Shown here: positions 60,695-62,269 of the stretch, piece after piece
Layout: each line of letters begins with the position of its first letter
Position numbering within the stretch: the first letter of the stretch is position 1
Assembly: GCA_964538685.1 (NCBI GenBank)
Contig: CAZIFD010000004.1
Coordinates: forward strand, 1-62,270
Origin: an uncultured Bdellovibrionales bacterium
GTDB lineage: Bacteria > Patescibacteriota > Minisyncoccia > Moranbacterales > UBA2206
Direction: 5' to 3'
DNA length: 62,270 nt
The notes under the pieces: generated by a model
The model's database searches: none
The model's input: the letters and a program-made list of their open reading frames with translations, nothing else
Told to the model about the DNA's origin: nothing
Translations under genes and position numbers: made by a program

Positions 60695-62269
60695 ATGAAA
60701 ACAAAATTTTTTCTCTACGCAAGAAAATCTACCGAAGACGAAGAAAGACAAGTTATGTCTATTGAAGCGCAACTGGCGGAGTTGGCGGAATTTGCCAAGC
60801 GGGAAAATATAGAAATTGCCGAAACATTTATTGAAAGTAAAAGCGCAAAGAAACCCGGCCGAGAAATTTTTAATGAAATGATGAGTAAAGTCCACGAAAG
60901 CAAAGAGCCGATTGGTTTGATTGCGTGGCACCCGGATCGCCTTGCCAGAAACAGCATAGATGGCGGACAGATTATTTACAGCATAGACATCGGCAAAATT
61001 GTTTCTTTGCGCTTTCCCACTTTTTGGTTTGAGCCAACTCCGCAAGGTTTGTTTATGCTTCAAGTCGCCTTTGGCCAATCAAAATATTATTCCGACAATT
61101 TGTCGGAAAATGTAAAGCGCGGGATTAGGCAAAAACTCAGGCGTGGCGAATGGCCGACTCTTGCGCCTTTCGGCTATGTGAATAATCCGAAAACGAGAAC
61201 TATTGAACCCGAACCGACAAAATCAAGGTGCGTTGCCAAAGCGTTTGAGGAATTTTCGCAAGGTCGGCACACTTTGGAAAGTTTGGGCCAACGCCTGAGT
61301 TTTTGGGGCGTGGTGAGCGGAACCGGAAAACCGCTTTGCAAGGCAACTTTACAAAGAATGCTCACAAACAAAGTTTATCTCGGCTTGATTGTTCATAACG
61401 GCGAAACTTACGAGGGCGGTTTTCCGGCAATTGTTTCCAGAGCGACTTTTGAAGCCGTCCAAAAAGTATTAAAACAGCGAGCAAGGCCTCGCAAATCCAA
61501 AAAGAGGCACAACTTCCCATTTGTCGGGCTTTTAACTTGTGGCGAGTGCGGTGGGGCGATTACCGCGCAATTTGCCCATGGACACGGCGGAACATATCGC
61601 TATTATCGTTGCACCAAAAAGCTCGGCAAATGTAGCCAGCGATATTTGCGCGAGGACTTGCTCGCCGATCAATTAAAATCACGGCTTCAAAATGTCGCTC
61701 TTGGCGACGACTGGGCGGAAAAGATGAACGCTCAAGTTGATGTTTGGGAAAAAGACAACACTCAGTCGGCGCAATCTTTCGCCCAAAATCTTGAGGAAAA
61801 AATCAAAGAGACGGAAACCAAACTTGATAAGCTGGTCAACGCTTTTTTGGACGGCTCGATTGAAAAAGAAACTTACCTTATCAAAAAAGACGACATCATC
61901 AAAACAAAAACAGACATCAACAAAAGAAAGTCTGATTTTGGGCGAAAGGGAAACAATTGGATTGAACCTTTGCGAAACTGGATAAATACCGCTCACCACG
62001 CCGAAAAACTTGCTTTGTCCAATGATTTTTATGAAATAAAATCATTGGCGGAAAAAATTGGAACGAACCGCCGTTTGCTTTCCCGAAAAGCCGAATTTGA
62101 ATTTGTCCGACCCTACGATTTAATTCCGAAATACAGGGCTTTTTGCGAAGCGAGACCCGCCGCAGGCGGGGCGAGCGAGCAACCAATCGCCCCTGATTTT
62201 GAAAAAAGTTTAATCTGGTCGGGCTGCCCGGAATTGAACCGGGATTACACGAACCCGAATCGTGCGTAA
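60695..62269 (+). CDS. Large serine recombinase LSR-2
   Basis: YARKS, HPDRLARN, CGECG...YYRC; last 15 codons are antisense tRNA-Pro. Confidence 0.95.
   Translation: MKTKFFLYARKSTEDEERQVMSIEAQLAELAEFAKRENIEIAETFIESKSAKKPGREIFNEMMSKVHESKEPIGLIAWHPDRLARNSIDGGQIIYSIDIGKIVSLRFPTFWFEPTPQGLFMLQVAFGQSKYYSDNLSENVKRGIRQKLRRGEWPTLAPFGYVNNPKTRTIEPEPTKSRCVAKAFEEFSQGRHTLESLGQRLSFWGVVSGTGKPLCKATLQRMLTNKVYLGLIVHNGETYEGGFPAIVSRATFEAVQKVLKQRARPRKSKKRHNFPFVGLLTCGECGGAITAQFAHGHGGTYRYYRCTKKLGKCSQRYLREDLLADQLKSRLQNVALGDDWAEKMNAQVDVWEKDNTQSAQSFAQNLEEKIKETETKLDKLVNAFLDGSIEKETYLIKKDDIIKTKTDINKRKSDFGRKGNNWIEPLRNWINTAHHAEKLALSNDFYEIKSLAEKIGTNRRLLSRKAEFEFVRPYDLIPKYRAFCEARPAAGGASEQPIAPDFEKSLIWSGCPELNRDYTNPNRA
62064..62221 (+). 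repeat. Right arm of 158 bp inverted repeat, inside 3' end of LSR-2
   Basis: Reverse complement of 60384-60541; ends 2 nt into the tRNA-Pro acceptor stem. Confidence 0.97.

What the first reader, a model, noticed from the sequence alone, without database searches (positions are those of the whole stretch)
62210..62269. att site lies inside the recombinase ORF: integration swaps its C-terminus
Seen: integrated LSR-2 ends IWS|GCPELNRDYTNPNRA* (antisense tRNA). Joining it to the left junction at 48919 gives in-frame IWS|HLLNEARTFFEQQILP*, and the inverted copy gives IWS|QLLNEARTFFERKMLE*. LSR-1 ends VVV|RPPGLEPGT...* versus VVV|YLYNQARTYFTKDF* from its inverted copy. All three alternative tails have five codons then ART[YF]F. 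Established: Myxococcus phage Mx8 Int has attP inside int, and integration changes its C-terminus and activity. Inference: a directionality or stability switch that may replace a separate RDF, none being recognisable here.
Basis: partly seen in the sequence, partly recalled or inferred. Interest (0 to 1): 0.75.

Follow-up and report, generated by a model that had tools for sequence, protein, structure and literature searches.

The report
Recombinase gene with its own attachment site
Two small mobile elements in this bacterial genome carry a serine recombinase whose DNA crossover site lies inside the end of its own gene, so insertion into a tRNA gene swaps the enzyme's last ~16 amino acids; this holds across a very large, apparently undescribed family, but whether the swap controls the enzyme is unproven.

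Summary
LSR-2 (60695-62269) and LSR-1 (372-1973) read into antisense tRNA-Pro and tRNA-Lys. The left junction (48919) and the inverted copies encode xLLNxARTxF tails in frame.

It is not chance. Thousands of homologues end either with this tail or with antisense sequence of assorted tRNAs, always after a conserved TGG-TCG (the reverse complement of the tRNA end CGACCA).

Seventeen complete elements (3-13 kb) share three sites with a 3-9 nt core: attL, an internal inverted full attP just upstream of the recombinase gene, and attR in the tRNA. The recombinase gene body is therefore bracketed by 55-237 nt inverted repeats (66 of 82 loci).

"RT" in ARTxF is the DNA motif CGAAC. It copies the tRNA T-loop and sits exactly 5 bp further from the core than in the tRNA (41 of 44 loci). 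This is the known attP/attB zinc-ribbon offset of serine integrases. The remaining tail residues show weak protein-level constraint, and the tail is predicted to be a tethered helix.

The intragenic att site and the C-terminal swap are real and family-wide. A directionality or stability switch is plausible but untested. A conserved XRE-type HTH gene next to attP weakens the "no accessory factor" argument.

The parts
48919..48973 (+). attL of element 2. The core GTCG (48919-48922) is preceded by the displaced tRNA-Pro trailer (B arm, ...AAAAGTGTCG). The P' arm follows and encodes in frame HLLNEARTFFEQQILP* (48923-48973).
   Evidence: Translation. Three-site comparison. The same trailer CGACACTTT follows intact tRNA-Pro(CGG) genes of other organisms.
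48974..49271 (+). R1: non-coding arm distal to P'. It is repeated in inverted form at 54759-54985 (100%) and, as R3, at 60175-60387 (84%).
49271..54575 (-). Cargo module A: aspartate-decarboxylase-like gene (49271-50098), IS200-type Y1 transposase (50237-50590), B12-binding radical SAM gene (50728-52260), radical SAM/SPASM gene (52313-53566), NUDIX-like gene (53582-54394), XRE HTH gene (54366-54575).
   Evidence: Pfam. NCBIfam.
54644..55142 (.). R2: palindromic junction of two R-type arms with no att core. It forms perfect inverted repeats with R1 (54759-54985 / 49020-49246) and with R3 (54968-55118 / 60080-60230).
55142..59900 (-). Cargo module B: type III restriction enzyme (55142-57961), type III methyltransferase (57958-59682), XRE HTH gene (59685-59900).
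   Evidence: Pfam. PADLOC.
60333..60541 (-). Internal inverted complete attP. The P arm is an exact copy of the last 158 nt of LSR-2 before the junction (60384-60541). The core CGAC lies at 60384-60387. The P' arm encodes QLLNEARTFFERKMLE* (60383 down to 60333).
60542..60694 (+). Unique upstream region of LSR-2, between the inner end of the inverted repeat and the start codon.
60695..62269 (+). LSR-2, a large serine recombinase of 524 aa. The P arm is 62064-62221. W-S = TGG TCG at 62216-62221, which is the reverse complement of the tRNA end CGACCA. The antisense-tRNA tail is 62222-62269.
   Evidence: Pfam PF00239, PF07508 and PF13408. Translation.
62216..62270 (-). attR and the 3' part of tRNA-Pro(CGG), cut by the window end. 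Its last bases (CGACCA) are supplied by the element's P arm. The T-loop TTGAAC lies at 62234-62239.
   Evidence: Rfam. 96% match to an intact tRNA-Pro(CGG) in L088. Anticodon read by eye.
1..187 (-). Internal inverted attP of element 1, whose remainder lies left of the window. The P arm is 51-187. The P' arm encodes YLYNQARTYFTKDF* (50 down to 6).
   Evidence: The unitig graph shows a second P' copy joined to another flank at position 55, which is probably attL-1.
372..1973 (+). LSR-1, a large serine recombinase of 533 aa, 45% identical to LSR-2. The P arm is 1777-1913. The antisense-tRNA tail starts at 1914.
1909..1984 (-). tRNA-Lys(TTT), intact. It forms attR of element 1, and its 3' terminal bases come from the P arm.
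   Evidence: ARAGORN.

Best explanation
The window holds the right end of one small non-viral integrative element and the whole of another (48919-62221, 13.3 kb). Both belong to one very large family of large serine recombinase (LSR) elements that insert into the 3' end of tRNA genes.

Shown:
- The crossover core (TCG within TGGTCG for LSR-2) lies in the 3' end of the recombinase ORF.
- Left of the core, the P arm is coding sequence, and it also supplies the tRNA's last bases (CGACCA), so the tRNA stays intact.
- Right of the core, the P' arm encodes a 14-19 residue tail.
- Integration joins the ORF to antisense tRNA instead. This gives tails of arbitrary sequence and length.
- P' carries nCGAAC, a copy of the tRNA T-loop TYGAAC, exactly 5 bp further from the core than in the tRNA.

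Inferred: the zinc-ribbon domain of the recombinase reads the T-loop. This would explain why many different tRNAs are targets, and why "R-T" in the tail is invariant at the DNA level.

Shown: every complete element keeps a second full attP, inverted, directly upstream of the recombinase gene. The gene body therefore sits between inverted P arms and the cargo between inverted P'/R arms. An excised circle would carry two inverted attP sites.

Inferred, with lower confidence: the lost tail is a tethered C-terminal helix whose removal may change recombinase behaviour. It could be restored either by excision (using the attL P' arm) or by inversion of the gene segment across the internal attP.
For: Domains: PF00239, PF07508 and PF13408 in both LSRs.

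Family size and tails: 6302 homologues with E<=1e-20. In the top 120, tails after WS are either x[LI]LNxxRTxF (27) or antisense tRNA.

Genomic context:
- In 80 species-representative genome loci the gene reads into tRNA-Pro, and also into Gln, Trp, Lys, Val, Asp, Arg, Ala, His, Leu and Phe tRNAs.
- 17 of 17 complete elements have attL, inverted attP and attR sharing a 3-9 nt core.
- The inverted repeat around the gene occurs in 66 of 82 loci at 80-100% identity. It occurs in long-read MAG contigs (L040, L076, L082) and in loci with diverged arms (L003, L008, L012, L023, L050), so it is not an assembly artefact.

DNA motif: the 5-bp offset of the T-loop motif holds in 41 of 44 loci. It matches the published attP/attB zinc-ribbon-motif shift (PMC3783163). 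CGAAC carries 1.8-2.0 bits per position and the R codon is CGA in 39 of 40 copies.

Tail as a peptide:
- pN/pS is 0.46 in frame against 0.67 and 1.23 out of frame.
- The last 8 codons of the P arm give 1.15, meaning no protein constraint.
- The stop falls at codon 14-20 in 38 of 40 copies.
- AlphaFold2 gives residues 487-506 pLDDT below 50 and a helix at 505-524 with pLDDT about 79.

Not a phage: no close relative in IMG/VR. Cargo is type III RM, radical SAM genes and similar.
Against: - No excision or circle junction was seen. One 10.5-kb unitig crosses attL without a branch in the source run. Only assembled unitigs were available, and these drop rare variants.
- The zinc-ribbon reading of the T-loop is inferred from spacing and conservation, not from binding data.
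- The pN/pS contrast rests on short, saturated sequences (pS 0.56-0.8). It is confounded by DNA-level constraint.
- The AlphaFold model is of low overall quality (pTM 0.34, 27-sequence alignment).
- The role of the internal inverted attP is unexplained.
- The orientation of the LSR-2 body between its perfect 158-nt repeats cannot be verified from k=31 unitigs.
Confidence: 0.8

Rival explanations
1. First reader's model. The C-terminal swap is a built-in directionality or stability switch. The attP-form enzyme, with its C-terminal helix, favours integration. The integrated form, lacking the helix, behaves differently (excision-competent, or inactive and stable). This replaces a separate RDF.
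For: - The tail motif and its length are conserved.
- There is weak frame-specific purifying selection.
- The tail is predicted to be a helix on a disordered tether of about 20 residues.
- Minimal complete elements of 3.1-3.6 kb (L056, L079, L081) have room for little besides the recombinase.
- Integrated recombinase ORFs remain intact in nearly all loci.
- Precedents exist for tyrosine systems: Mx8 IntP and integration-dependent immunity.
Against: - The most conserved tail residues (R-T) are explained by the DNA motif.
- Integrated tails range from 1 to more than 20 residues with arbitrary sequence, so only loss of the helix could matter.
- A conserved XRE HTH gene accompanies attP in most elements.
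- There are no functional data and no excision junction.
Confidence: 0.3
2. Invertible-cassette model. The recombinase gene segment flips between the internal inverted attP and attR, either by the recombinase itself or by homologous recombination across the 92-200 nt P arms. This toggles the enzyme between a tRNA-tailed and an attP-tailed form without excision. In the flipped state the gene also lies downstream of the tRNA promoter.
For: - The gene body is bracketed by inverted repeats whose outer ends are the crossover cores.
- The arms are identical in 30 of 66 loci although this region is hypervariable between elements. This implies ongoing homogenisation or a recent origin.
- All three attP-form contigs examined (L002, L083, L084) show recombinase -> attP -> R -> HTH -> cargo. 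That is the flipped state, not the product of simple excision.
- Some contigs have a tRNA directly upstream of the gene (L046, L067, L028).
- 27 of 112 full-length homologues are attP-form.
Against: - All 17 resolved elements, all diverged-arm loci and the three long-read loci are in the same orientation, with the gene reading into the tRNA.
- The attP-form contigs begin about one k-mer length inside the repeat, so their orientation could be an assembler's choice.
- Canonical serine integrases do not recombine attP with attR.
Confidence: 0.25
3. Neutral overlap. The ORF simply runs through attP because no stop codon intervenes. The tail has no function. The internal inverted attP is a relic of element accretion or rearrangement.
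For: - The 25-30 residues before the junction are hypervariable and show no protein constraint.
- Integrated tails are arbitrary.
- Arrays with extra inverted attP copies and P-arm remnants exist (L083), and module junctions without cores exist (R2). Both show frequent rearrangement.
Against: - The three-site layout is stereotyped in 17 of 17 complete elements, and the HTH gene sits next to the internal attP in every element that has one (about 11).
- Tail length and non-motif residues are conserved, with synonymous Leu codon changes.
Confidence: 0.25
4. Assembly artefact. The inverted copies and chimeric tails come from misjoined metagenomic contigs.
For: The repeats are perfect and longer than typical k-mers. 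The Logan unitigs collapse them at about twice the depth.
Against: The same architecture appears in dozens of independent assemblies and phyla, with imperfect repeats (81-96%) and in long-read assemblies. The inner repeat boundary joins unique sequence.
Confidence: 0.03

Closest known systems
Myxococcus phage Mx8 IntP (attP inside int)
   Same: The attP core lies within the integrase ORF. Integration creates a gene with a new 3' end, and the prophage isoform is altered rather than destroyed (PMC6070905).
   Different: Mx8 IntP is a tyrosine recombinase of a phage. Here the enzyme is a large serine recombinase of small non-viral elements. The target is the tRNA 3' end itself, and a second inverted attP is kept.
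Integration-dependent immunity of mycobacteriophages (BPs, Brujita)
   Same: attP lies inside a gene, the attB is a tRNA, and integration removes a C-terminal peptide and thereby changes protein stability. No RDF is encoded (PMC9262239).
   Different: There the split gene is the repressor and the removed peptide is an ssrA-like degradation tag, with a tyrosine integrase. Here the split gene is the recombinase, and the tails end in sequences such as ...KMLE, ...QILP or ...TKDF with no ssrA-like end.
Canonical large serine integrases (Listeria A118/LI, Bxb1, phiC31)
   Same: They share the domain set (resolvase, recombinase, zinc ribbon with coiled coil), a very short common core, and a zinc-ribbon DNA motif 5 bp nearer the centre in attB than in attP (PMC3783163).
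   Different: - Known serine-integrase phages of mycobacteria are reported not to use tRNA genes (PMC9262239).
- Here only one half-site of each partner (P' and B') carries the distal motif.
- attP overlaps the ORF end.
- The elements carry two inverted attP copies.
- Scores lie below the NCBIfam cut-offs for XisF, CcrA and CcrB.
Dehalococcoides ssrA-specific genomic islands (DsiB serine recombinase)
   Same: A CcrB-like large serine recombinase next to the junction drives small islands into the T-loop region of a tRNA-like gene, tmRNA (PMC3146451).
   Different: Those islands have about 20-nt direct repeats, a six-gene integration module with a second small recombinase, and no reported intragenic att site or inverted attP. 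Homology to that family was not tested here.
Serine invertase switches (Hin H-segment; Mu Gin G-segment)
   Same: A recombinase gene lies inside or next to a segment bounded by inverted crossover sites. In Mu, inversion swaps the C-terminal part of a protein. (From my own knowledge of these systems.)
   Different: Those enzymes are small serine invertases with a C-terminal HTH and a Fis-dependent enhancer. Here the enzyme has large-serine-recombinase architecture, and inversion is not demonstrated.
Yeast 2-micron plasmid (FLP and inverted repeats)
   Same: The predicted excised circle would have two inverted copies of the recombination site, dividing it into a recombinase segment and a cargo segment. 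(The layout analogy is from my own knowledge.)
   Different: FLP is a tyrosine recombinase, and the plasmid replicates and uses flipping for copy-number amplification. No replication gene is seen here.

Membership tests
Large serine recombinase (serine integrase) systems | N-terminal resolvase catalytic domain, recombinase domain and zinc beta-ribbon domain | tested here: met
   PF00239, PF07508 and PF13408 are all above their cut-offs in LSR-1 and LSR-2. Long paired helices at residues 340-414 of the model fit a coiled-coil insert.
Large serine recombinase (serine integrase) systems | attP and attB share only a few bases around the crossover | tested here: met
   The identity common to attL, internal attP and attR is 3-9 nt in 17 complete elements, and only TCG in L016.
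Large serine recombinase (serine integrase) systems | Distal (zinc-ribbon) DNA motif about 5 bp closer to the centre in attB than in attP | tested here: met
   TYGAAC in B' against nCGAAC in P': the offset is exactly 5 bp in 41 of 44 loci. The rule comes from PMC3783163. Only the P' and B' halves carry the motif.
Large serine recombinase (serine integrase) systems | Unidirectional attP x attB reaction, reversed by a separate RDF | not testable with these tools
   No biochemical data. An XRE HTH gene lies next to attP in most elements, but its role is unknown.
Named LSR families XisF, CcrA, CcrB, CcrC (NCBIfam equivalogs) | Score above the curated cut-off | tested here: not met
   The best scores are 90-123 bits against cut-offs of 375-900.
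Mx8-type intragenic attP | attP core inside the integrase ORF, so that integration changes the 3' end | tested here: met
Mx8-type intragenic attP | Tyrosine recombinase | tested here: not met
   The enzyme has serine recombinase domains.
Mx8-type intragenic attP | The prophage isoform has altered activity | not testable with these tools
   Requires expression of both isoforms.
Integration-dependent immunity (attP in repressor, degradation tag removed) | [quoted passage not shown] | tested here: not met
   The att core is in the recombinase gene, not in the HTH gene. The attP-form tails end in varied residues with no LAA-like end.
Serine DNA invertase switches (Hin/Gin/Pin) | Segment bounded by inverted crossover sites | tested here: met
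   Inverted P arms ending at the core flank the gene in 66 of 82 loci.
Serine DNA invertase switches (Hin/Gin/Pin) | Both orientations present in a population | tested here: inconclusive
   The k=31 unitigs cannot phase a 158-nt repeat. Resolved loci are all in one orientation. The attP-form contigs L002, L083 and L084 fit the other orientation but start inside the repeat.
Serine DNA invertase switches (Hin/Gin/Pin) | Small (about 190 aa) recombinase with a C-terminal HTH | tested here: not met
   The proteins are 524-533 aa with recombinase and zinc-ribbon domains.
Temperate phage | Virion or phage genes, or relatives in viral collections | tested here: not met
   Elements are 3.1-13.3 kb with RM, radical SAM, transporter or toxin-antitoxin cargo. 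IMG/VR returned only one hit, at 26% identity.

The most novel reading that the evidence does not exclude
A self-contained, RDF-free serine recombinase system in which the enzyme's own C-terminal helix is encoded across the crossover point. Recombination itself would then rewrite the enzyme between a helix-bearing and a helix-less isoform with different directionality or stability. The rewriting events would be integration, excision, and inversion of the gene segment between the internal inverted attP and attR. The tRNA T-loop and its mimic in P' would be the only specific distal contacts, so attL could behave like attP and attR like attB.
Probability: 0.2. Interest if true: 0.85.

Novelty: new variant of a known kind. 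Interest (0 to 1): 0.62.

Why it matters
Serine integrases are major genome-engineering tools, and their directionality control normally needs a separate, hard-to-find RDF. If the model here holds, several things follow.

- A family whose att site lies in its own ORF, and that recognises the universally conserved tRNA T-loop through a one-sided distal motif, would offer a natural example of target recognition by mimicry.
- It would explain broad tRNA targeting across phyla.
- It might provide a built-in, recombination-written isoform switch.

The family is abundant: thousands of members in Patescibacteria, Omnitrophota, Saccharibacteria, Bacteroidales and other groups. It moves defence cargo such as restriction-modification systems in organisms with very small genomes. 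I found no description of it in the searched literature.

Even if the tail proves neutral, the three-site layout with an internal inverted attP is an unexplained and testable feature.

Tried and rejected
- Exact look-up of LSR-1 and LSR-2 in the contig index returned nothing.
- The assembly-artefact idea was rejected because imperfect repeats and long-read loci show the same layout.
- I looked for excision or empty-site evidence in the source run. The unitigs cross attL unbranched, and no alternative junction appears at attR. Raw reads were not available for any run, so rare circles and inversion could not be tested.
- A scan of metagenome contigs for the predicted empty attB of this host found only other organisms' tRNA-Pro genes with the same trailer. 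This is useful for the boundaries but is not a presence/absence polymorphism.
- I considered that a palindromic crossover dinucleotide (CG in LSR-2) explains the inverted layout. I dropped this because LSR-1 (TG) and the TGGTGG subfamily (GG) have non-palindromic centres by the same symmetry argument.
- I considered tandem accretion and simple excision as sources of the attP-form contigs. Neither gives the observed order recombinase -> attP -> R -> HTH -> cargo. Only inversion of the gene segment, or an assembler mis-walk, does.
- Rfam found no RNA family in the R regions.
- IMG/VR holds no close relatives.
- Seven full-text literature searches found no description of this family or layout.
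Full report
**Observation**

The window ends with a 524-aa ORF (60695-62269). It has the three Pfam domains of a large serine recombinase. Its last 16 codons run into the antisense strand of a tRNA that the window end cuts (Rfam tRNA at 62219-62270, minus strand). I read the anticodon by eye as CGG (Pro); a 96%-identical intact tRNA-Pro(CGG) elsewhere supports this.

- IWS|GCPELNRDYTNPNRA* at the gene end.
- IWS|QLLNEARTFFERKMLE* on the reverse complement of 60333-60541.
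- S|HLLNEARTFFEQQILP* at 48920-48973.
- For LSR-1 (372-1973), VVV|RPPGLEPGT... into tRNA-Lys (1909-1984), against VVV|YLYNQARTYFTKDF* on the reverse complement of 6-187.

The inverted copies are perfect repeats of 158 and 137 nt.

**Is it more than chance?**

A homologue search returned 6302 proteins with E<=1e-20. Many are more than 70% identical, and they come from Patescibacteria, Omnitrophota, Elusimicrobia, Acidobacteria and Marinimicrobia.

Their C-termini fall into two classes after a conserved W-S. One class is x[LI]LNxxRTxF(E) followed by a stop (27 of the top 120). The other is a variety of G[RC]x[DE][LS]N... tails, which are antisense tRNA. W-S is TGG-TCG, the reverse complement of the tRNA end CGA-CCA.

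In 80 loci from species-representative genomes, the gene reads into a tRNA in nearly every case. The tRNA is mostly tRNA-Pro, but Gln, Trp, Lys, Val, Asp, Arg, Ala, His, Leu and Phe tRNAs also occur. The att core inside the ORF is therefore a property of the family.

The inverted copy is not only an alternative tail. It is a complete second attP.

In 66 of 82 loci an inverted copy of the gene's 3' end lies just upstream of the gene. Identity is 100% in 30 loci, 98 to under 100% in 16, 95-98% in 14 and below 95% in 6.

The diverged cases (L003, L008, L012, L023, L050) and three loci on long-read MAG contigs (L040, L076, L082) exclude an assembly artefact.

Seventeen complete elements, 3.1-13.3 kb including the one here, all have the same three sites around a 3-9 nt core:
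- attL (B-core-P').
- An internal inverted attP (P'-core-P, reverse complement).
- attR (P-core-B', where B' is the tRNA).

The recombinase gene body is thus bracketed by inverted P arms, and the cargo by inverted P'/R arms. Any circle excised by attL x attR must carry two inverted attP copies.

In the source run, the unitig graph agrees with two copies of each P arm: depth 21-24 against 9-15 for the flanks. It cannot phase the gene body between them.

**Recognition logic**

I aligned 40 non-redundant P' arms and 36 B' arms on the core.

The tRNA T-loop (TYGAAC on this strand) sits at positions 13-18 of B'. An almost invariant nCGAAC sits at positions 18-23 of P'. The offset is exactly 5 bp in 41 of 44 loci.

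This is the attP/attB shift of the zinc-ribbon-domain motif established for the Listeria integrase and proposed for other serine integrases (PMC3783163).

The arginine codon is CGA in 39 of 40 copies, which marks a DNA-level constraint. The P half-site and the B half-site carry no such distal motif.

P and P' share an A11-C12 element placed symmetrically about the CG of TGGTCG. This puts the crossover there for LSR-2. That placement is an inference.

**Is the tail also a peptide?**

Partly supportive evidence exists.
- The two leucine codons vary synonymously (TTG, TTA, CTA, CTG).
- pN/pS in the real frame is 0.46, against 0.67 and 1.23 in the other frames. For codons 9-12 it is 0.41 against about 1.15.
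- The last eight codons of the P arm give 1.15, meaning no protein constraint.
- The stop falls at codon 14-20 in 38 of 40 copies. Integrated tails run from 1 to more than 20 codons.
- In an alignment of 27 attP-form proteins, conservation ends near residue 487. A hypervariable stretch of 25-30 residues follows, and then the tail motif.
- AlphaFold2 models residues 487-506 with pLDDT below 50, and residues 505-524 as a helix with pLDDT about 79. The overall model is poor (pTM 0.34).

A tethered C-terminal helix that integration removes is therefore plausible. These tests are short, saturated and confounded by the DNA motif.

**Accessory genes and cargo**

Element 2 is composite.

Cargo B is a type III restriction-modification pair. 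It is preceded by an XRE-type HTH gene (59685-59900).

Cargo A is preceded by a second HTH gene (54366-54575). It contains:
- two radical SAM genes;
- a NUDIX-like gene;
- an IS200-type transposase;
- an aspartate-decarboxylase-like gene.

The two modules meet at a palindromic junction (R2) that lacks a core.

An HTH gene in the same position occurs in about 11 of the 17 complete elements. It is absent from the 3.1-3.6 kb minimal ones. The absence of an accessory factor therefore cannot be asserted for this element. The minimal elements do suggest that the recombinase can suffice.

The family has no close relative in IMG/VR. It scores below the cut-offs of XisF, CcrA and CcrB.

**Orientation states**

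All resolved integrated elements have the gene reading into the tRNA.

The three attP-form contigs examined (L002, L083, L084) have the order recombinase -> attP -> R -> HTH -> cargo. This equals the integrated layout with only the gene segment flipped. It is not the product of simple excision or of tandem insertion.

These contigs begin about one k-mer length inside the repeat. They may therefore reflect real inversion or an assembler's choice.

Some loci have a tRNA directly upstream of the gene. In L033 and L028, tRNA-Pro sequence lies on both sides. This suggests that the internal attP can recombine with a second tRNA.

No raw reads were available, so inversion and excision remain untested. 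In the source run, attL is crossed by a single unbranched unitig.

**Comparison with known systems**

- Intragenic attP with a changed integrase C-terminus is established for the tyrosine integrase of Mx8 (PMC6070905).
- Removal of a C-terminal degradation tag by integration into a tRNA is established for mycobacteriophage repressors (PMC9262239). That review also notes that serine-integrase mycobacteriophages do not use tRNA genes.
- A serine recombinase that targets the T-loop region of tmRNA is known in Dehalococcoides islands (PMC3146451).

Seven literature searches found no report of a serine recombinase family with attP inside its own ORF, a T-loop mimic in P', or an internal inverted attP. 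I rate this a new variant of a known kind.

**Verdict**

The motif argument is largely a DNA-recognition signal. The proposed switch is plausible but unproven. The unexplained internal inverted attP is the most interesting open feature.

Noticed in passing
window 54644-55142, with 49020-49246 and 60080-60230: Element 2 has two cargo modules, each bracketed by perfect inverted repeats (227 nt and 151 nt). The middle junction R2 is a palindrome of two R-type arms and has no att core. This suggests fusion of two cassettes.
   Followed up: partly
window 50237-50590 (-): An IS200/IS605-type Y1 transposase ORF (117 aa, PF01797) lies inside cargo module A.
   Followed up: no
window 60276-62093, compared with 48300-49500 and 62192 onward: In the source run the LSR-2 body (9.2x) and the internal P' piece (8.8x) have about 0.6 of the k-mer depth of the host flanks and cargo A (14.3-14.7x). 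The type III RM module lies between them (11.8x). Part of the population may lack or differ in this segment.
   Followed up: partly
L033:940-2937 and L028:9642-11571: The recombinase gene is flanked on both sides by inverted tRNA-Pro sequence. In L033 these are two different tRNA-Pro genes (GGG and CGG). In L028 the tRNA-Pro(CGG) lies upstream and the contig ends within antisense tRNA sequence downstream. This looks as if the internal inverted attP had recombined with a second tRNA, which would be a possible route to chromosomal inversion.
   Followed up: partly
L083:5647-5919 and 6937-7237: This contig carries two further inverted complete attP copies, each with a remnant P arm from a different recombinase variant. 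They separate cargo blocks (HinfI-type RM, a SocA/Panacea antitoxin-like gene, glycosyl hydrolase and glycosyltransferase genes). It looks like an array of cassettes.
   Followed up: partly
window 61730-62073 (run X1): The same sample holds at least two other, 85-90% similar members of this recombinase family at low depth (2.8x and 4.4x).
   Followed up: no
window 26-55 (run X1 unitigs): The P' arm of element 1 exists in two contexts in the source run. One continues into the P arm, as in the window. The other continues into GAAAAATCCCTCTCAAGGG..., and a 16-kb unitig also attaches at this point. This is probably attL of element 1, lying outside the window.
   Followed up: partly
window 52313-53566 (-): The radical SAM/SPASM protein in cargo A gives weak PADLOC hits to prokaryotic viperins (E=2e-10). 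Its best NCBIfam hit is the mycofactocin maturase, below the cut-off. Its function is unclear.
   Followed up: no
L075:2430-4886: In a Bacteroidales contig (88 kb) the recombinase has an attP-type tail (HVLNEVRTFFEGEEG*). It is flanked by two diverged (83-95%) inverted full attP copies, with no tRNA found in the fetched 14.8-kb locus. This may be a non-integrated or differently integrated form.
   Followed up: no
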